Below, in pieces: positions 13,731-54,620 of a stretch of 64,000 nt of DNA; positions within the stretch are counted from its first letter, which is position 1; every line of letters begins with the position of its first letter. Origin of the DNA: Deltaproteobacteria bacterium (GTDB taxonomy: Bacteria > Desulfobacterota > Binatia > Bin18); contig JACPWD010000022.1 in NCBI GenBank assembly GCA_016197285.1, forward strand, positions 182,502 through 246,501. The letters are read 5' to 3'. The position numbers were made by a program, and so were the translations under genes. The notes beneath the pieces were generated by a model that ran no database searches, was not told the DNA's origin, and saw only the letters and a program-made list of their open reading frames with translations.

Positions 13731-14015
13731 GCTCGAAAAAATCCTTTACTGTTGTGAATGGGGATTCGGGCTACGGAACTCGACTATAGGGCAGAAGCCT
13801 GGCAAGGTCAAATTCGCGCAGAAAGCCGCGAAAAATCAGGGGGATAAAACAGGCTCTGATCAGGTGGCACCTTTGTGGGTCCTTGCCTCAACCGTGCTCG
13901 ACAGAAATTTTGACCGTGCCGAGTTTGGGTGGAGACGCTAAATGAAGAAGATGTTGCCGTTGGGGTGAAAAGAGAGCGGCAGGTATACTTCGCGAGTCAT
14001 ACCCTGCGCTTTTTC

Positions 14016-14105
14016 TGTCATTCTGAACGAAGCAGAGCGCAGTGAAGAATCTTTTTGCTGAGCCACGAGTGGAGCGAGATTCCTCGCTCCGTTCGGAATG
14101 ACAAC
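14016..14105. repeat. MITE/REP-like imperfect palindromic repeat, family 1 copy A
   Basis: TGTCATTCTGAACG...GAAGAATC ... GAGATTCCTCG...CGGAATGACA. It is one of six dispersed copies and sits in the kdsB upstream region at the island boundary. Confidence 0.7.
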
Positions 14106-14136
14106 ATCGGGCGATAATGGTTATGCGGATAGGCCC

Positions 14137-14532
14137 TTAGTACCGCCTAGAGATCCGTTCGCCTCCATGTTGTTTCATCTCGAACTGGTCTTCAAATAGG
14201 TGGGTAACGCCCTTCCAAGCTTGGTGTCTCTCTTCCCTTTTAAGGAATTTTTTCAAAGCCCGTAACCTTGTTGCAGGCTTGACTCCAAACTTAATCATGC
14301 CTTGGTGAGTACAAAACGGAATATAGTTCTCAGTAAATCTCTTATCGCTTGTTATCAAGATTGCCCCAGCGTCAGTAGACTTCTGAATCACGGTTGGGTC
14401 TTCAGCGTCCTGCCTTAGCCCAGCATCACGAAAGGAAACCACTTTGATCTTTCTCAGAGTGGAAAGATATTCTGAGATCTCGGCTGATAGGCAAGCATCC
14501 ACCAAGAAAGTCAGTTTCCTTTTGGAACTCAT
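14137..14532 (-). CDS. DUF5615-family (PIN-like, Mut7-C related) putative toxin
   Basis: 131 aa; LTFLVDACLS...ISEYL N-terminus resembles DUF5615 proteins that pair with DUF433; low-GC region; 3 nt from the DUF433 ORF. Confidence 0.5.
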   Translation of the reverse strand: MSSKRKLTFLVDACLSAEISEYLSTLRKIKVVSFRDAGLRQDAEDPTVIQKSTDAGAILITSDKRFTENYIPFCTHQGMIKFGVKPATRLRALKKFLKREERHQAWKGVTHLFEDQFEMKQHGGERISRRY

Positions 14533-14535
14533 GCC

Positions 14536-14811
14536 TTATCTTTCCATGACATACCCGGCAAACTGAAGCGCCGCGTGTAATCCTTCTTGGCCAATCGCTG
14601 GAAAGGATTTCAGTATCTTCTTATGCGAGTACCCTGCTTCGACTAACTCAAGAATGGCATAGACAGGAACTCTTGTCTCGGCGACGCAGGGTGCTCCTCC
14701 ATAGATTTTCCTGTTCATAACGATTTTATTATCGACCTTCTCTGCTGCTTGACGAAAAGATTCCTCTATGGAGTCACGAAAATGATCCGCAGAGGACATG
14801 TCAGCATCCAT
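14536..14811 (-). CDS. DUF433-domain protein (putative antitoxin partner). The ORF may extend to 14967.
   Basis: C-terminal IYGGAPCVAETRVPVYAILELVEAGYSHKKILKSFP matches the DUF433 core. Domain-sized protein starts at ATG 14811. Track ORF (143 aa) starts at 14967. Confidence 0.55.
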   Translation of the reverse strand: MDADMSSADHFRDSIEESFRQAAEKVDNKIVMNRKIYGGAPCVAETRVPVYAILELVEAGYSHKKILKSFPAIGQEGLHAALQFAGYVMER

Positions 14812-14963
14812 GCTAGATGCAGGCCATTCTAAGTTAGTGCGCAACGAGCACAAGGACGTTAAGTCTCTGATGATGGAGAATTTCTCCCCGGAGCGCCTAA
14901 CGGGTCGCCTTGCTGATAAGAAGAATCTCTCTTGTTCTGTACTTTTTCGCTTCTGTGCCGCAA

Positions 14964-15671
14964 TCATTTTCTTCTCCTTATCGGTCTTACTGTAGAAAGT
15001 GCAACTTCACTAAGGACAACGACATCATCCTCAACAGTCATCAGTTTCTGCGCGGTAGTCTTTGCTTGTCTATTTAGCCGAACAAAAATTGACTTTCTCA
15101 ATACCCGCTGTTCGGCAAAGCTTACGCCTACTTTATTTTCTTGAAGATTGAGGAAGGTTCCCTCTGCCTGAGCGCCTTCAAAAATTTCGTTCTCTGTGGT
15201 GTTCAATGTCCCAGATAAAAGCAAGGGGAGAGAGAACGCCGAACGATAAGAGTTCCTTGGAAATGCGAAAAATGCCATCTCTTTTAGCTCAATGCTTGCG
15301 TCTGGAGAGATGAATTTATGCAGCCATTGAAATATATCTTCCGCAAATGGCGGCTGTTCCCTGTCCGATTTGATCGCCGTCGTTGGCTCAAGGGCAACAT
15401 GGAAATGCAGCTTGGCCGCTTTGGTTAATTTTTCACGATCCCAGTGAATCCCGACACGTGCTCGATAATCGACTTTTTCACTGGACCGACCACAGGATAC
15501 GGCAAGCGGTTGATTTTTCTTGAACGCTTTTACCAGGTCTTCAAAAGGGAGAACTTCGAGAAATAGATCCTGTAGAAAGTCTTTCTTAGCGATCACTATG
15601 TTCGCTTCAAAGCCTCCACAGTGATGGGACTTGAGTTTTAATGCCTCGCGTTCTTTCCGGGGTGTAGTCAT
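14964..15671 (-). CDS. Hypothetical protein, 235 aa, no recognisable domain; in low-GC island
   Basis: Clean ORF with balanced amino-acid composition, unlike GC-rich antisense ORFs. AT-richer than flanks. Adjacent to the DUF433/DUF5615 pair. Confidence 0.5.
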   Translation of the reverse strand: MTTPRKEREALKLKSHHCGGFEANIVIAKKDFLQDLFLEVLPFEDLVKAFKKNQPLAVSCGRSSEKVDYRARVGIHWDREKLTKAAKLHFHVALEPTTAIKSDREQPPFAEDIFQWLHKFISPDASIELKEMAFFAFPRNSYRSAFSLPLLLSGTLNTTENEIFEGAQAEGTFLNLQENKVGVSFAEQRVLRKSIFVRLNRQAKTTAQKLMTVEDDVVVLSEVALSTVRPIRRRK

Positions 15672-15849
15672 GAAAATTCATCCAGGGAACTAATATGGCA
15701 CGAACGACGCCAACTAAACAACCTTCATCACCGCTCGAAATCAAAATATAAAGGCAGGGTTAGCGGTGTTTCCCCTCGCCGTTGTCGCTTCTCTTCTATA
15801 AGGATTTAGGAGACCTATCGTTCCCCAATTCGGCGGCTTCGTCCATGGC

Positions 15850-16269
15850 TCACACCTCCACCGGGGTCGGCTCGCCCTCCCCCCACACGCGGGCGAGGGT
15901 GGCCTGTATCTTCTTCTCGAAGCGGGCGATCAGTTCACGGTTGGCGGCGACCAACGCTTGCTCCGCTTCAATCTCCTCGACGATTTCCTCGATGAGGCGC
16001 TTGGGGTTCGGCACGGTCTTTTGGTAGCCAGTGATGGAGGTAGGCGTCGGAAACGCCGTGATGACGTAAGGGTTGCCGCGTTCGAGATCCCAGAAGTAAT
16101 GCAGGTTGCCGTTGGAGAGGATGACGAAGCGGCAGTTCTGGGACTTGGCGTATCTACGCACCTGCTCCTTGCCGACGAGCGGGCTTCTGTCTTCGGCTTT
16201 GGCTTCGAGGACGATGAACGGGAAGCCTTTTTCATTGCGGCTTCCTTCTCGGGCATTCCGATTCCTGTC
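15850..16269 (-). pseudogene. Remnant of a type I restriction enzyme R-subunit N-terminal (HsdR_N-like) domain protein
   Basis: Stop-to-stop frame encodes ...GFPFIVLEAKAEDRSPLVGKEQVRRYAKSQNCRFVILSNGNLHYFWDLERGNPYVI, the HsdR_N restriction-enzyme core motif. No start codon precedes the domain. The only start is a GTG in mid-domain. Confidence 0.5.
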
Positions 16270-16303: not shown

Positions 16304-17173
16304 TCAAGCTGTACTCGGTTGCGCTTCGGCAGGACGGCACTGCACCTGGAGGGCGACCTGCAATGAACTGAAGACACCGGCACCACGAAAGCTCCCCGTA
16401 ACAGGCGCGGCCAAGCGCGGAATTCTCCCAGCAGCGATCACGACATGCTGATCGGCAACTGTGAGCCCACTGGTCGGATCGTACCCGCGCCAGCCGCCGC
16501 CAGGGAGATAGACTTCCGCCCAGGCATGCATGCTCGCGGCGAATACGCTTTTTCCTCCCGTGTACCCGCTGACGAACCGCGCGGCGAGCCCGACAACACG
16601 ACACGATTCGATAAACAGGACGGCAAGGTCGCGGCACGCACCACGCTTTTGCGCCAGCGTCGCCGCTGCCGACTGCGGGTCCCCGTGTTCACGCGTGACA
16701 TAGGTCGTCCGCTCATGAATGCGAGTGTTCAATTGCGCCAGAAACGCCAAGGGTTCCTGTTTCACGTCCGCGGCAATGGAGCGGGCAAATTGATAAAGAG
16801 AGGCATCGTGCTCGCTCACGATGCGATACGACTCCAGGGTCGGACGGATCTCGGTCGCATAGGACACCGGAAGCATCGCTGCGGCGGGGTCGGTAATAAT
16901 GAAGTCGAATGGATTGTCGCGCACGGTCTCTACCGTGAGACGACTCGCGATCTGCAAACGTCGCGTCGCGTCGGCAAACCACACCGACACCACATCGTTC
17001 CCCTCGGCATCTCTTCCCTCCGCCATTCCGGCAGGAAGCGGGTCGATGTTCAGCGCGATCTGTCGAATGCGCTGCGTGCCATCGCTCCGCGGTCGCAAGC
17101 GCAGTTCGTGGGGATTGAGCGCGACAAGGCCACTATAGTTATAAGTCATCGTATGGGAAATCTCGAAAATCAT
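16304..17173 (-). CDS. Transglutaminase-like protein with bacterial transglutaminase N-terminal domain
   Basis: 289 aa; Cys-protease-like core GACRDLAVLFIESCRVVGLAARFVSGY; last gene of the ATP-grasp/alpha-E/Anbu operon. Confidence 0.8.
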   Translation of the reverse strand: MIFEISHTMTYNYSGLVALNPHELRLRPRSDGTQRIRQIALNIDPLPAGMAEGRDAEGNDVVSVWFADATRRLQIASRLTVETVRDNPFDFIITDPAAAMLPVSYATEIRPTLESYRIVSEHDASLYQFARSIAADVKQEPLAFLAQLNTRIHERTTYVTREHGDPQSAAATLAQKRGACRDLAVLFIESCRVVGLAARFVSGYTGGKSVFAASMHAWAEVYLPGGGWRGYDPTSGLTVADQHVVIAAGRIPRLAAPVTGSFRGAGVFSSLQVALQVQCRPAEAQPSTA

Positions 17174-17197
17174 GCGTCCTGTCCGCCGTCTTCCGGC

Positions 17198-17947
17198 TTA
17201 CACCAACACCACGCCGTTGCGCGTATCGAGTCCAGTAAAGACGCGCTCCAGGCTGGTAGCCGGGAGTTCGTGTACGGAACGTCGGAGTTGTTCTTGCCAC
17301 ACTGTGGACATCTCCAGCAGATCGTTCTTCTCGTAGCGATGTTCGACCAGCCGGTGGGAATCTTTGACGTACAAAATGACATCGATGGGGAAATCGACAT
17401 CCGCCGCGCTAATCCGGGTCGAATCGAAGGCCAGGCAACCGACTTTGAGCGCAAACCGCATCGAGTCGTGATGCTGCAGCGTGCGATCGAGAATGGGTTT
17501 GCCATAACCCGAGGCGCCGATGATGTGGTACGGCGTGCCTTGGCCGATTTCCACCCAATTGCCCTGAGGATAGATGAGATAGAGCTTGTGACTGCGATCA
17601 TTGGCGAACTGCCCACCAATGAGGGTATGGATATTGAAATGCAATCCGCCCTCTTCCAACGCTTCTTTATCCTCCTTAGCGACGCGACGGAGTTGCCCGG
17701 CAAACGCATTCACGGCTTTGAAAAGCCGGTCGAACTCCTGACCTTCATCGGCCATGCGTTCCTCGAAGTACGTTAGTGTCTTGTCCCGCAGGGAGCGCAG
17801 GCCGGAGGTCATTACGAACATGGTCTGCCCCTCGTTCGTATAGGTGCTGACTTTGCGCGCGGAGATACATTCGCTGCCGGACAGCACCCGCGTGTCGGCA
17901 ATCCCCACTAGCCCATCTTGTAAATTGATGCCCAGACAAAAAGTCAC
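17198..17947 (-). CDS. Anbu (ancestral beta-subunit) proteasome-like peptidase
   Basis: Proteasome beta-subunit-like fold. A GTG at 17947 gives the N-terminus M-TFCLGINLQDGLVGIADTRV, placing a Thr directly after the initiator as in Anbu. Track ORF starts 9 nt upstream at another GTG. Confidence 0.7.
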   Translation of the reverse strand: MTFCLGINLQDGLVGIADTRVLSGSECISARKVSTYTNEGQTMFVMTSGLRSLRDKTLTYFEERMADEGQEFDRLFKAVNAFAGQLRRVAKEDKEALEEGGLHFNIHTLIGGQFANDRSHKLYLIYPQGNWVEIGQGTPYHIIGASGYGKPILDRTLQHHDSMRFALKVGCLAFDSTRISAADVDFPIDVILYVKDSHRLVEHRYEKNDLLEMSTVWQEQLRRSVHELPATSLERVFTGLDTRNGVVLV

Positions 17948-18013
17948 CAGTTCCACTCCTTCGGTAAGTACCCCACATTATCGATGCTCTAGTACTTCGT
18001 CCATGAACAGATG

Positions 18014-18118
18014 AGGGATTGTCATTCCGAGCCGGAACGCAGTGCAGGCGAGGAATCTCGTGTCGATACTGCCAGCGTGAGATTTCTCGTCGCTCCGCTC
18101 CTCGAAATGACATCCCTC
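18014..18118. repeat. MITE/REP-like repeat family 1 copy B
   Basis: GTCATTCCGAGCCGGAACGCAGTGCAGGCGAGGAATCTCG ... GAGATTTCTCGTCGC...CGAAATGACA; sits in the alpha-E/Anbu intergenic gap; generates spurious ORF 17745..18113. Confidence 0.7.
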
Positions 18119-18142
18119 GAAATTCCCCGGACAGACTACTAG

Positions 18143-19144
18143 CTATCCGCCACTAACAGACATTTGGCTGCTTTTGCCCAACGTAACGGCTCCACCGATC
18201 GGCTGCAAGGTAAAGAACGTTGTAAAGATGTGTTCCCCGACGGTATTGAGTTTGGTTTGCAAGGCGTCCACGAATTCGTGCAACCCCTCGCCGATCACGT
18301 CTTCCACCCGCGCGTAGGCTAATTCCGCGCGCAACTGGCCAAGATGTTGCTCGGCGGAATTACAGAAGGCCCCGACCGGCGAGCCGGCAATAGCGTGGAG
18401 GGATTCGTCGGCTTTGATCAGACAATAGTGAGAAGAGCGGGGGAATTCCCGATCGAGGAGCAGGAAATCCACGATATTATCGGGCGTGAGGTGGTGATGG
18501 CGTTTGCGGTACATCTCGAAGGCACTGGCCGAGCGCAGCACCGCCGCCCATTGGATGTCGTCGAACGGCGTGCCCACATCGTCTGGCGAAGGCAGCAGAA
18601 TGAAGTATTTCACGTCCAGGATACGCGAGGTTTTGTCGGCACGCTCCAATAACCGACCCAACCGACAGAAGTGCCACCCCTCGCCATGCGACATGGTGGC
18701 GTTGGCGAGCCCTTCAAAGAGATGGCTGGCCATTTTGACTTCGCGAAAGAACTCGTAGGGCGCGTCCGCAACCCGTTCGCTCGCCCCAGGATCGGTGACC
18801 ATGAGGTAAAAGGTATTCACCTGCTCCCACATCTCCGACGAGATGATTTCTCGCACCGAACGGGCACTTTCGCGCGCGGCCCGCAGGCACGAAACGATGG
18901 CGTTGGGATTCTCTTTATCGAAGGTCAGGAACTGCACCACGTTTTCGCGCGTGGCGATGCCATGGCGTTCGGCAAAGAGGTCCTCATCGCCGGAAGTCAC
19001 CACCAGCGGATGCCATTGTTCGGTGGCGTCGGCCGGCAGGTCCAGCAGCAATTGCAAATTGACATCGACGAACCGCGCCACATTCTCCGCACGCTCGATA
19101 TAACGACTCATCCAGTACAGACTGTCAGCCACTCGGGAAAGCAT
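18143..19144 (-). CDS. Alpha-E domain protein (DUF403)
   Basis: 333 aa; N-terminus MLSRVADSLYWMSRYIERAEN is the alpha-E signature; follows the circularly permuted ATP-grasp gene. Confidence 0.8.
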   Translation of the reverse strand: MLSRVADSLYWMSRYIERAENVARFVDVNLQLLLDLPADATEQWHPLVVTSGDEDLFAERHGIATRENVVQFLTFDKENPNAIVSCLRAARESARSVREIISSEMWEQVNTFYLMVTDPGASERVADAPYEFFREVKMASHLFEGLANATMSHGEGWHFCRLGRLLERADKTSRILDVKYFILLPSPDDVGTPFDDIQWAAVLRSASAFEMYRKRHHHLTPDNIVDFLLLDREFPRSSHYCLIKADESLHAIAGSPVGAFCNSAEQHLGQLRAELAYARVEDVIGEGLHEFVDALQTKLNTVGEHIFTTFFTLQPIGGAVTLGKSSQMSVSGG

Positions 19145-19156
19145 CGATTCCGCCCC

Positions 19157-20593
19157 CTACTCGAACAGCACCCACGTATCTTTACTGCCACCACCCTGGG
19201 ACGAGTTCACCACCAGGGACCCTTTCTTCAAGGCCACCCGCGTGAGCCCGCCCGGCAAGACAAAAATATCTTCTCCATAGAGCACGTACGGGCGGAGATC
19301 GACATGCCGCCCCTCGAAATGATCGCCAATAATCACCGGTACGCGCGAAAGCGAGAGGGTCGGTTGAGCGATGTAATTGCGAGGATTGGCCTTAATCAAC
19401 CGCGCGAATTGCTCGCGCTGCATCGACGAAGAATGTGGACCGACGAGCATCCCATACCCACCGGACTCATTGGCGGCTTTGACGACCAGCTTGTCCAGAT
19501 TGTCGAGCACGTAGACTTGCTCTTTCTCGTCCGCGCACACATAGGTAGGCACGTTGGGAATCGCACACTCTTCCCCCAGATAATACTTCACGATCTTGGG
19601 CACATAGGCATACACCACCTTATCGTCGGCGATGCCGGTGCCGGGGGCATTAGCGAGCGCGACGCGACCGGCTTTGTACACCTCCAACAAGCCGGGAACA
19701 CCCAGCGTGGAATCCGGGCGAAAGACGAGGGGATCGAGAAAATCGTCATCAATGCGACGATAGAGCACATCGACCCGCTGCAATCCCTTGGTCGTGTGCA
19801 TTTGGAGCAGCCCATCGGCAACAAGCAGGTCGCGCCCCTCCACCAACTCCACTCCCATTTGTTGCGCCAGAAACGAGTGCTCGAAGTAGGCAGAGTTGTA
19901 AATCCCCGGCGTCAGCACGGCCACGGTCGGGGTCTGAGTGTAATCCGGCGCGAGATACTGCAACATCCCCAGCAAATGGCTGGGGTAATCGTCCACCGGT
20001 CGTACGCGCAATTCGCCGAACACCTGGGGAAAGGTCCGCTTCATAATCTGGCGGTTTTCCAGCACATAGGACACGCCGGAGGGACAGCGCAGGTTATCCT
20101 CCAGGACGTACACCTGCCCGTCACCGTCGCGCACCAGATCGGTGCCGGTAATGTGGCACCAGATGCCGCGTGGGGGCGTGAGCCCGATGCATGCGGCACG
20201 GAACGAACGCGCGGAGGCGATAATCTCTTCGGGAACGACCTTATCTTTGAGGATTTTCTGCTGGTGGTAAATGTCGTCGATGAACAGGTTGAGCGCGACC
20301 ACGCGCTGTTTCAAGCCGCGTTCGAGCCGCTCCCATTCCGCCGACTCGACGATGCGCGGAATGATATCGAACGGAAAGATCCGTTCCGTGCCCGCGCTGT
20401 CGCCGTAGACGTTGAAGGTGATCCCCATGTGCAGGAGCGCCCGCTCCGCTGCCTGTTGGCGCTGATGCAGTTCGCCGTCGGAGAGCGAATCGATGCGCTC
20501 TTGCAGCAGGACCGCTCCAGGGCGAGGACGGCCATCGGGTTGGAACATTTCGTCGGAAAACCCCTCGGTATTGTAGCCGTGAAAGGTGATCAT
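19157..20593 (-). CDS. Circularly permuted ATP-grasp protein (type 2; DUF404/DUF407)
   Basis: Sequence typical of cpATP-grasp amidoligases paired with alpha-E. Track ORF starts at 20674. ATG at 20593 (MITFHGYN...) has GGAG upstream. Confidence 0.8.
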
Positions 20594-20869
20594 GGTCCGG
20601 GTGCTCCGCGTCTCTAAACATCGAACGTGGGCTAAAGCAGCATGTAGCGTGCCAGAGAGATGCCGATTCGGCAACCGAAGCGAAACGGCGGGAACGGTTC
20701 AAGTTCGCTAGATTCTGTAGGAGAGAAGTCAGTCCTGCCTGGACTTCTGGTCGCAGTGGTGCTCAGGTTTTAGGCAGCCGTGCCGCATTCATATGCGACG
20801 GCGCCACCTCCGCCAACGCCGCCGTCGGCAGCAAAAGAGGTAGGCTAGGTCATGACCCAGACTCTGAGA

Positions 20870-28842: not shown

Positions 28843-28872
28843 GCGCCTATCCGGATAACCACTATCGCCCGA

Positions 28873-28970
28873 TTGTCATTCTGAGCGCAGCGAAGAATCT
28901 TGCTTTCACCGCCGAAGAAAGATGTTTCGCGGAGTTTATCCTGAGCGTAGTCGAAGGGCTCAACATGACA
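28873..28970. repeat. MITE/REP-like repeat family 1 copy C, flanked by TATCCGGATA palindromic direct repeats
   Basis: TGTCATTCTGAGCGCAGCGAAGAATC ... GCGGAGTTTATCCTGAGCGTAGTCGAAGGG; CCTATCCGGATAAC at ~28848 and GTTATCCGGATAGG at ~28981. Confidence 0.7.
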
Positions 28971-54533: not shown

Positions 54534-54620
54534 TTGTCACCCTGAACCCTTCGACTTCGCTCAGGATAAACTCCGTGAAGGGTCTCGCCGTGAGATTCTT
54601 CGCTGCGCTCAGAATGACAG
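54534..54620. repeat. MITE/REP-like repeat family 1 copy D (inverse orientation of copy C)
   Basis: CCCTTCGACTTCGCTCAGGATAAACTCCG ... GAGATTCTTCGCTGCGCTCAGAATGACA is the reverse complement arrangement of copy C. Confidence 0.7.

What the first reader, a model, noticed from the sequence alone, without database searches (positions are those of the whole stretch)
14964..15671. Orphan 235-aa protein with no recognisable domain inside the defence-like island
Clean, non-biased ORF (not Arg/Ala-rich like GC antisense ORFs), AT-richer than the genome, positioned directly upstream of the DUF433/DUF5615 pair with which it may be co-transcribed (start of DUF433 ORF overlaps its stop by 4 nt if the long start is used). 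Could be a novel effector of the putative TA/defence module.
Basis: inference. Interest (0 to 1): 0.5.

Follow-up and report, generated by a model that had tools for sequence, protein, structure and literature searches.

The report
Third gene of a toxin-antitoxin cassette
The 235-aa "orphan" is a real, conserved protein of an undescribed family that always sits as the translationally coupled first gene of a mobile three-gene cassette with a DUF433 antitoxin and a PIN-like toxin. It is most likely an accessory partner of the antitoxin rather than a stand-alone effector.

Summary
The ORF at 14964..15671 (-) is real, under purifying selection (dN/dS 0.11-0.35), and matches no Pfam, NCBIfam, PADLOC, PHROGs or PDB-sequence entry. 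It is not a true orphan. A profile search of 1.84 billion representatives finds 33 relatives.

In all 16 other distinct loci with enough downstream sequence, the gene is followed by the same pair. That pair is a DUF433 protein with an unusual 65-85-aa N-terminal extension and a DUF5615 PIN-like protein. Two of these loci are decayed. X's stop overlaps the DUF433 start (ATGA) in 11 of the 13 loci examined at the junction.

The cassette has 10-14 points lower GC than its flanks, sits in unrelated contexts, and is often next to an IS1595 transposase. Distant homologues (15-25% identity) head a different coupled trio: X-like, an unknown protein with a variable N-terminus, then DUF7689.

Best reading: X is the third component of a tripartite VapBC45-type toxin-antitoxin module. 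It probably binds the antitoxin's N-terminal extension, which carries a conserved K[F/W]x[V/I/L] motif. This is functionally analogous to, but unrelated to, the SecB-like chaperone of TAC systems. The mechanism is inferred, not shown.

The parts
14093..15847 (-). Extent of the shared mobile unit: leader, X, long DUF433 and DUF5615, plus about 40 nt of 3' tail.
   Evidence: blastn of the window flanks against L008, a contig with different outer flanks. Homology runs from 176 nt upstream of X (89% identity) to about 42 nt past the DUF5615 stop, then stops. GC is 0.458 against 0.582 in the flanks.
15672..15847 (-). Conserved 5' leader with a shared motif TTGGCGTCGTTCGTGCCATATTAG (about 15690-15713). 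This is a candidate promoter or operator.
   Evidence: 89% identical to L008. Related motifs lie 25-50 nt upstream of X in L002, L007, L008 and L017 (read by eye). The imperfect palindrome TGGCGTCGTTCGTGCCA was picked up. The sigma-70 scan found no more sites than shuffles do, so its function is inferred.
14964..15671 (-). Gene X: a 235-aa protein of an unnamed family, first gene of the cassette. NCBI record MBI3247202.1, 'hypothetical protein'.
14974..14979 (-). AAGGAG Shine-Dalgarno-like sequence for the DUF433 gene, lying inside X's C-terminal RRRK codons, 6 nt before the ATG.
   Evidence: Sequence read. The same purine-rich junction is present in the other loci. The analogous GAGGAG sits in the EEKK tail of the distant X-like genes.
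14964..14967 (-). ATGA overlap: the stop of X (TGA) overlaps the start of the long DUF433 gene (ATG). This is a signature of translational coupling.
   Evidence: Conserved in 11 of the 13 loci examined. Also found between X-like and the middle gene in L010 and L012, and in L009 if the long start is used.
14743..14967 (-). N-terminal extension (about residues 1-75) of the DUF433 protein. It diverges fast but is always in frame.
   Evidence: The frame is open from the ATGA in all loci. dN/dS is 0.30-0.64, against 0.06-0.23 for the DUF433 domain. Stand-alone DUF433 domains are 70-80 aa (PMC2701414).
14872..14883 (-). K-F-S-I (residues 29-32), an instance of the conserved K[F/W]x[V/I/L/T/F/W] motif in the extension. 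Proposed X-binding element.
   Evidence: The motif is present at residues 28-37 in 16 of 16 extensions, against 8.3% of shuffled extensions. That it binds X is inference.
14557..14724 (-). DUF433 (COG2442) domain, residues 82-137: three-helical DNA-binding antitoxin domain.
   Evidence: Pfam PF04255, E 3.4e-16. Matches PDB 2ga1 at E 0.002. Predicted or validated antitoxin of PIN toxins (PMC2701414, PMC3834315, PMC5175181).
14137..14532 (-). DUF5615 / PIN_10 (Mut7-C-like PIN) protein, 131 aa: predicted ribonuclease toxin.
   Evidence: Pfam PF18480 at E 6.9e-07 and PF18478 at E 1.9e-05. Invariant D12, D45, T-x-DKRFTE (D63, E68) and H76 across 12 cassettes. There is a 3-nt gap after the DUF433 stop.
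14015..14104 (-). 90-nt palindromic hairpin element just downstream of the cassette. It may be a terminator, a stabiliser or a REP/MITE-like repeat.
   Evidence: RNA fold of -41.7 kcal/mol, z -3.2. Partial copies lie at 28845-28904 and 54592-54619 in the window.

Best explanation
Gene X is the first gene of a horizontally mobile three-gene operon: X, then a long DUF433 protein, then a DUF5615 PIN-like protein. The operon is a tripartite elaboration of the known DUF433/PIN-like (VapBC45-type) type II toxin-antitoxin pair.

**Shown here**
- X is a conserved coding gene.
- It is always linked to this pair.
- It is translationally coupled to the antitoxin gene.
- The antitoxin in these cassettes always carries an extra 65-85-aa N-terminal extension.
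- Distant X homologues head a second, unrelated coupled trio whose middle protein also has a variable N-terminal segment.

**Inferred**
- X is a non-enzymatic alpha/beta protein with a large TBP-like antiparallel sheet.
- It binds the antitoxin's N-terminal extension through the short aromatic motif K[F/W]x[V/I/L].
- Binding controls the stability or availability of the antitoxin, and therefore whether the PIN-like RNase is held in check.
- This is the logic of toxin-antitoxin-chaperone (TAC) systems. There a dedicated accessory protein recognises an aromatic 'addiction' segment on the antitoxin, can be combined with different toxin-antitoxin pairs, and can act as the phage sensor.
- X is not related to the SecB-like TAC chaperone, and the extension is N-terminal rather than C-terminal.
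For: 1. The gene is real and constrained. There are 5 close homologues and 33 cluster representatives. dN/dS is 0.11-0.35.
2. Linkage is invariant. Counting the window, 15 distinct loci carry an intact X, long DUF433 and DUF5615 in that order, and two more (L026/L027, L028) carry decayed copies. No locus with enough downstream sequence lacks the pair.
3. Searching from the antitoxin side gives the same result. All four long-DUF433 homologues whose contigs I looked up are preceded by X, or in L026 by an N-terminally truncated X.
4. Translational coupling is conserved. The ATGA overlap is present in 11 of the 13 loci examined, with an AAGGAG motif in X's tail.
5. The extension is specific to these cassettes. 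Ordinary DUF433 is 70-80 aa (PMC2701414). Here it is 143-158 aa, with the frame always open although dN/dS is 0.3-0.64. A K[FW]x[VILTFW] motif is present in 16 of 16 extensions, against 8% of shuffles.
6. The family is modular. X-like proteins at 15-25% identity head X-like, a 126-158-aa unknown protein and DUF7689 trios, again with ATGA coupling and a variable N-terminus on the middle protein.
7. The downstream pair is a bona fide TA type. Rv2019/Rv2018 and VapBC10 have been validated experimentally (PMC5175181, PMC3834315), and PIN_10/COG4634 are classed as TA toxins (PMC5499597). The PIN acidic residues are invariant here.
8. X does not look like an enzyme. Across the family the only polar positions conserved at 90% or more are C18 and D68. 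The most conserved segment, YRSAFSLPLLLSG (142-154), leads into the only internal stretch of very low confidence in the model (residues 155-166, pLDDT below 50). That pattern is typical of a partner-dependent interface.
9. There is a TAC precedent. An aromatic ChAD pattern is recognised by the chaperone, the chaperone can be swapped between TA pairs, and it acts as the phage sensor (PMC5105189 and bioRxiv 10.1101/2024.02.24.581848).
Against: - No physical or predicted X-extension interaction was obtained. Complex prediction was not possible with the tools.
- X is encoded first, not last as in TAC. The extension is N-terminal.
- X has no similarity to SecB or to any known chaperone.
- The extension motif is short, and the sequences are related by descent, so 16 of 16 overstates the independence of the observations.
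- The context of most distant family members (P0017-P0027 and others) could not be examined.
- A basic pI (about 9.4-10 in many members) and TBP-like topology would fit nucleic-acid binding equally well.
- The function of the DUF7689 trio is unknown, so describing it as 'two different TA pairs' is itself an inference.
Confidence: 0.45

Rival explanations
1. X is a second toxin or effector. The middle protein would be a dual antitoxin: its N-terminal extension neutralises X and its DUF433 domain deals with the PIN-like protein, giving a toxin-antitoxin-toxin arrangement.
For: The extension/X linkage and the coupling are equally expected if the extension is an X-neutralising segment. In the decayed locus L026/L027 both X and the PIN gene are truncated while the middle gene is intact, the usual decay pattern in which toxins are lost and the antitoxin is kept. 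C18, D68 and, in distant members, the DYHxH motif could form an active site.
Against: The His residues are not conserved in the window's clade (DYRAR). No enzyme or pore-forming fold is matched. X has no membrane segment. Each trio already has an obvious enzyme-like third gene (PIN-like, or DUF7689). A single decayed lineage is weak evidence.
Confidence: 0.2
2. X is a DNA- or RNA-binding regulator of the operon, a third-component regulator like omega in omega-epsilon-zeta or PaaR2 in PaaR2-PaaA2-ParE2. It would use a TBP-like concave sheet.
Confidence: 0.15
3. X is an unrelated hitch-hiking gene, for example an IS1595 passenger, with no functional link to the toxin-antitoxin pair. Alternatively, it is not a gene.
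For: IS1595 transposase genes lie next to the cassette in L002, L025 and L029. No expression data are available.
Against: X is linked to the pair in every locus examined, and the 4-nt overlap is conserved. Selection is purifying. Many loci, the window included, have no transposase nearby.
Confidence: 0.04

Closest known systems
Toxin-antitoxin-chaperone (TAC) systems: M. tuberculosis HigBA-SecB(TA), E. coli HigBAC and CmdTAC
   Same: A tripartite operon built on an ordinary type II TA pair. The antitoxin carries an extra, poorly conserved segment absent from stand-alone relatives, with an aromatic recognition pattern. The same accessory family is combined with unrelated TA pairs (PMC5105189, PMC6377645, bioRxiv 10.1101/2024.02.24.581848).
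DUF433 (COG2442) with a PIN-like toxin: two-gene TA systems VapBC45 (Rv2018/Rv2019) and VapBC10 (ssr2962/slr1767)
   Same: Genes 2 and 3 of the cassette carry the same domains in the same antitoxin-then-toxin order. The toxin is probably an RNase (PMC5175181).
   Different: Those systems have two genes. Their DUF433 is either bare (70-80 aa) or fused to a winged HTH (Rv2018) (PMC2701414). None has an X-like gene or this N-terminal extension.
Three-component TA modules with a regulator as first gene: omega-epsilon-zeta and PaaR2-PaaA2-ParE2 (from my own knowledge)
   Same: The extra component is encoded first in the operon, upstream of the antitoxin and toxin.
   Different: Those first genes are small RHH or HTH repressors. 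X is a 235-aa alpha/beta protein with no DNA-binding motif detected, and it is coupled to an extension on the antitoxin.
TATA-binding-protein-like fold (TBP-domain superfamily)

Membership tests
DUF433/PIN-like (VapBC45-type) type II toxin-antitoxin | Antitoxin with a DUF433 (COG2442) domain | tested here: met
   PF04255, E 3.4e-16, residues 82-137 of the 14536..14967 product. PDB 2ga1, E 0.002.
DUF433/PIN-like (VapBC45-type) type II toxin-antitoxin | Adjacent downstream Mut7-C-like PIN toxin (DUF5615 / PIN_10 / COG4634) with conserved acidic residues | tested here: met
   PF18480 at 6.9e-07 and PF18478 at 1.9e-05. 3-nt intergenic gap. D12, D45, D63 and E68 are invariant in 12 cassettes. Their mapping onto the active site is by analogy only.
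DUF433/PIN-like (VapBC45-type) type II toxin-antitoxin | Two-gene architecture with a short (70-80 aa) or wHTH-fused antitoxin | tested here: not met
   There are three coupled genes, and the antitoxin is 143-158 aa with a novel N-terminal extension. X itself has no counterpart in the family.
DUF433/PIN-like (VapBC45-type) type II toxin-antitoxin | Toxin arrests growth and the antitoxin neutralises it | not testable with these tools
   Needs expression assays. Shown only for Rv2019/Rv2018 and VapBC10.
TAC (toxin-antitoxin-chaperone) | Third component is a SecB-like chaperone | tested here: not met
TAC (toxin-antitoxin-chaperone) | Antitoxin carries an extra addiction segment, absent from stand-alone homologues, with an aromatic pattern | tested here: inconclusive
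   The extension is present and specific to X-linked antitoxins, and has a K[FW]x[VIL] motif. It is N-terminal, however, and its binding to X is untested.
TAC (toxin-antitoxin-chaperone) | The same accessory family is associated with different TA pairs | tested here: met
   X-like proteins head both DUF433/DUF5615 trios and unknown/DUF7689 trios. That the second pair is a TA pair is inferred.
TAC (toxin-antitoxin-chaperone) | Antitoxin stability and toxin control depend on the accessory protein | not testable with these tools
   Requires co-expression and stability assays.
TBP-domain superfamily | Pseudo-twofold duplicated alpha/beta domain with significant structural similarity to TBP | tested here: inconclusive
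Catalogued anti-phage defence systems (PADLOC-DB 2.0) | Any component matches a defence-system model | tested here: not met
   0 hits at E<=1 for X, DUF433 and DUF5615, and 0 hits for the DUF7689-type trio.

The most novel reading that the evidence does not exclude
X defines a previously unrecognised, non-SecB class of toxin-antitoxin accessory proteins. It would be an 'addiction partner' that docks onto a short aromatic motif in an N-terminal extension of the antitoxin. It would have been recruited independently to at least two unrelated toxin/antidote pairs (PIN-like RNase; DUF7689 putative Cys/His enzyme). By convergence with TAC chaperones, it would serve as the trigger (phage protein) sensor of an abortive-infection module.
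Probability: 0.3. Interest if true: 0.7.

Novelty: new variant of a known kind. Interest (0 to 1): 0.5.

Why it matters
Tripartite toxin-antitoxin systems are where sensing and regulation were added to a simple two-gene switch. So far the well-understood accessory is the SecB-like chaperone of TAC systems. There the chaperone reads an aromatic segment on the antitoxin, and a phage protein competing for it fires the toxin.

A second, structurally unrelated accessory family that plugs into different toxin/antidote pairs through an N-terminal extension would show that this 'addiction' logic evolved more than once. It would also give a new portable control module.

The finding gives a function-level hypothesis for an unnamed protein family, and context for Pfam DUF7689. 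The practical limits are that the family is rare (33 clusters among 1.84 billion representatives) and so far confined to uncultured bacteria (Binatia-type MAGs and metagenomes). Any test will need heterologous expression.

Tried and rejected
- **Family libraries.** Pfam, NCBIfam, PADLOC and PHROGs gave nothing for X and nothing beyond DUF7689 for the distant trio.
- **PDB by sequence.** A profile search gave only noise, E >= 0.08.
- **Internal duplication.** No signal with hhalign.
- **HUH-nuclease idea** (DYHVH in distant members, HFHV in close ones). Rejected because neither His pair is conserved across the family.
- **Cys-His-Asp triad idea.** Rejected for the window's clade for the same reason.
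- **Basic RRRK tail as a functional motif.** Better explained by the embedded Shine-Dalgarno sequence for the next gene.
- **Promoter/terminator scan.** No more sites than in shuffles.
- **Rfam on the leaders.** Nothing.
- **Flanking direct repeats or att-like sites.** None convincing.
- **Plasmid, phage and IMG/VR searches** for X, X-like and DUF7689. No match.
- **Context of the other distant subgroups** (P0017-P0027 and others).

Full report
**1. The observation**

The ORF listing returns a 235-aa ATG-initiated ORF at 14964..15671 on the minus strand. It lies in a 2-kb trough of G+C: 0.47-0.49 at 14001-16000, against about 0.59 in the rest of the window.

Directly downstream on the same strand are a 143-aa ORF (14536..14967) and a 131-aa ORF (14137..14532). 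The first has a DUF433 domain at residues 82-137 (PF04255, E 3.4e-16). The second matches DUF5615 (E 6.9e-07) and PIN_10 (E 1.9e-05).

The stop of the 235-aa ORF and the ATG of the long DUF433 ORF overlap as ATGA. The protein, here called X, has no hit in Pfam, PADLOC, NCBIfam or PHROGs. A profile search of PDB sequences gives only noise.

The exact sequence is in NCBI as MBI3247202.1, 'hypothetical protein', from a MAG labelled Deltaproteobacteria bacterium. Its neighbours are annotated as a DUF433 domain-containing protein and a DUF5615 family PIN-like protein.

**2. It is a real gene and not a true orphan**

The indexed search of 5.8 billion proteins finds five homologues at 46-98% identity. 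An exhaustive profile search of 1.84 billion cluster representatives finds 33 proteins at E <= 1e-3, nine of them at E <= 1e-30.

The distant members are 210-245 aa and share a few motifs with X:
- a Cys at the start of the first strand (C18);
- D68, within DYHxH in distant members but DYRAx in the window's clade;
- PPFAED...W (108-116);
- F-x-F-P (135-138);
- S-x-F-x-LPL (144-150);
- G171.

Codon comparisons give dN/dS of 0.19 against a 98%-identical copy, about 0.11 against 57%-identical copies, and 0.35 within another clade.

**3. The gene never travels alone**

I collected loci in three ways:
- exact look-up of the homologues;
- scans of GTDB genomes, which found two Candidatus Binatia chromosomes, and of JGI metagenomes;
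- a search from the antitoxin side, followed by contig look-ups.

tblastn with the three window proteins shows that every locus with enough downstream sequence has X, then the long DUF433, then DUF5615, in that order. Counting the window, that is 15 distinct intact loci plus two decayed ones.

The surroundings differ:
- downstream of a complete type I R-M system and a YgjP-like gene in one Binatia chromosome;
- between a TPR protein and a thiolase in another;
- next to an SRA-HNH gene;
- next to IS1595-family transposase genes in three lineages;
- between kdsB and a transglutaminase-like gene in the window.

In seven loci with X cassettes the cassette is 3-14 G+C points below its flanks, 10-14 points in six of them. 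Comparison of the window with contig L008 delimits the shared unit to about 14093-15847: 176 nt of leader, the three genes, and about 40 nt of tail. A second clade shares a 2.1-kb unit at about 90% identity across three contexts.

This is a small mobile module. No copy was found on sequenced plasmids, phages or IMG/VR contigs.

**4. Coupling, and the unusual antitoxin**

In 11 of the 13 loci where I examined the junction, the DUF433 ORF starts at an ATG that overlaps X's TGA. It is preceded by AAGGAG-like purines that double as X's C-terminal Arg/Lys codons. This also explains the basic tail of X.

DUF433 antitoxins are normally 70-80 aa (Makarova et al. 2009, PMC2701414). Here they are 143-158 aa. 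The added N-terminal 65-85 residues evolve quickly (dN/dS 0.30-0.64, against 0.06-0.23 for the domain), but the frame is open from the coupled ATG in every locus.

Within this otherwise unalignable extension one short motif persists. K-[F/W]-x-[V/I/L/T/F/W], preceded by basic residues, occurs at residues 28-37 in 16 of 16 sequences. Only 8.3% of shuffled extensions contain it. The sequences are related by descent, so this reflects conservation and is not an independent-sample statistic.

**5. Modularity**

Three distant X-like proteins (15-25% identical to X) could be placed on contigs: P0029, P0041 and P0039. Each is the first gene of another trio: X-like, a 126-158-aa protein with no Pfam match, then a 165-167-aa DUF7689 protein.

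The ATGA overlap between X-like and the middle gene recurs in L010 and L012, and in L009 if the upstream ATG is used. A GAGGAG sequence sits in the tail codons.

The middle proteins have a conserved C-terminal 90 residues and a variable N-terminal segment that contains a G-P-W motif at residues 22-26. By eye, DUF7689 has a papain-like 'YNCLAWALG ... HFARQ ... DIEH' pattern. This is my reading and is untested.

The constant element across two otherwise unrelated trios is therefore X plus an N-terminal add-on on the middle protein.

**6. Structure**

An AF2 model from six sequences had pLDDT 73.9. With twelve sequences that include distant members it rose to pLDDT 83.4 and pTM 0.80, and all five models agreed. 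The order of elements is beta-alpha-alpha-beta-beta-beta-alpha, then beta-(beta)-[low-confidence 155-166]-beta-beta-alpha.

I conclude only that X is an alpha/beta two-layer protein with a large antiparallel sheet of TBP-like topology, with no confidently identifiable homologue of known function. The most conserved segment, YRSAFSLPLLLSG, leads into the only internal stretch of very low confidence in the model. That is common for regions that order on a partner.

**7. What it most likely does**

The downstream pair belongs to an established TA type:
- COG2442/DUF433-PIN pairs were predicted by Makarova et al..
- The COG4634/PIN_10 Mut7-C-like group is classed as TA toxins by Matelska et al. 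(PMC5499597).
- Rv2019/Rv2018 was shown to be an RNase toxin with a neutralising antitoxin (PMC5175181).
- VapBC10 was validated in Synechocystis (PMC3834315).

The PIN-like protein here keeps invariant D12, D45, T-x-DKRFTE and H76.

X is thus an added third component. Four features together match the defining logic of TAC systems: invariant linkage, translational coupling to the antitoxin, an antitoxin extension found only with X, and re-use of X-like proteins with a different pair that shows the same add-on. In TAC systems a dedicated chaperone recognises an aromatic 'ChAD' segment on the antitoxin, can be transplanted between TA pairs, and can be titrated by a phage protein to fire the toxin (PMC5105189, PMC6377645, bioRxiv 10.1101/2024.02.24.581848).

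My best explanation, at confidence about 0.45, is that X binds the N-terminal extension and thereby controls antitoxin stability or availability. Encoding X immediately upstream, with coupled translation, would place it in position as the antitoxin's N-terminus emerges. Every step after 'X is a linked, coupled third component' is inference.

**8. Rivals**

- **Second toxin, neutralised by the extension (0.2).** This is compatible with the linkage and with one decayed locus where X and PIN are both truncated but the middle gene is intact. However, X lacks conserved catalytic-looking residues in the window's clade.
- **Unrelated passenger gene, or not a gene (0.04).** This is contradicted by the linkage, the coupling and the purifying selection.
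- The remaining probability is for roles I have not thought of.

**9. Comparison with known systems, and novelty**

Genes 2 and 3 pass the domain and order tests for the DUF433/PIN-like TA family. The cassette fails that family's two-gene, short-antitoxin architecture.

X fails the one structural criterion for TAC (a SecB-like chaperone) and differs from TAC in gene order and in the end of the antitoxin that is extended. It should not be filed as TAC, although it may work like one. No PADLOC model matches any component.

I rate it a new variant of a known kind: a tripartite TA module with a novel accessory family. Interest is moderate at 0.5. The comparative signal is clean and the convergence with TAC would be instructive. 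But the family is rare, confined to uncultured lineages, and the mechanism is untested.

Noticed in passing
window 15850-16161 (-): A 103-aa ORF just upstream of the cassette has weak similarity to the N-terminal nuclease region of type I restriction R subunits (HSDR_N_2 at E 0.011; EcoAI-type HsdR at E 0.04). It looks like a gene remnant. In the Binatia chromosome L001 the homologous cassette sits right after a complete hsdM-hsdS-hsdR-ygjP cluster.
   Followed up: partly
window 14015-14104; partial copies at 28845-28904 and 54592-54619: A 90-nt near-perfect hairpin (GTCATTCCGAAC...GTTCAGAATGAC; -41.7 kcal/mol, z -3.2) lies immediately after the DUF5615 stop. The first 60 nt after the stop recur twice elsewhere in the window at about 85% identity. 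This suggests a REP/MITE-like dispersed repeat.
   Followed up: partly
L002 6901-7881, L029 3214-4221, L025 6035-6949 (probably also L007 2-322): IS1595-family transposase genes (Zn_ribbon_IS1595 + DDE_Tnp_IS1595) lie directly next to the cassette in several lineages. Homology between L002 and L007 extends into the transposase gene. The cassette may travel as an IS1595 passenger.
   Followed up: partly
L026 4561-5633 / L027; L028 1170-2707: Decayed copies. In L026/L027, X lacks its first ~100 residues next to a DUF772 transposase, and the PIN gene stops after residue ~62, while the DUF433 gene is intact. In L028 the PIN gene is frameshifted and called as a 205-aa fusion with DUF433.
   Followed up: partly
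L009 7111-7608, L010 7118-7621, L012 1538-2041: The DUF7689 proteins (third gene of the distant X-like trios) show a 'YNCLAWALG ... HFARQL ... DIEH' pattern, which reads like a papain-like Cys/His enzyme. No paper mentions DUF7689 and no PDB sequence matches.
   Followed up: no
L001 7669-8000 (also L006, L025, L028): About 330 nt upstream of X is roughly 90% identical across four contexts. It includes a perfect 10-bp inverted repeat, CCTTTAACTG-N12-CAGTTAAAGG, about 94 nt before the called start. There is no Rfam match. This could be an operator or a structured leader.
   Followed up: partly
L001 7971-8000, L006 319-348: The called starts of X in these loci are probably 30 nt too short. tblastn alignment to the window protein begins at an upstream in-frame ATG, giving MGKDQKRASP....
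   Followed up: no
L008 ~310-345 versus window 15690-15713: The conserved leader motif TTCGTGC(C/A)ATA is tandemly duplicated in L008 relative to the window.
   Followed up: no
window 16304-20674 (-): By eye from the ORF translations, the genes after the island look like four things in turn: a transglutaminase-like protein, a proteasome-type protease-like protein, an alpha-E-domain protein, and a circularly permuted ATP-grasp protein. That is a known conserved gene cluster. I did not check it with any tool.
   Followed up: no
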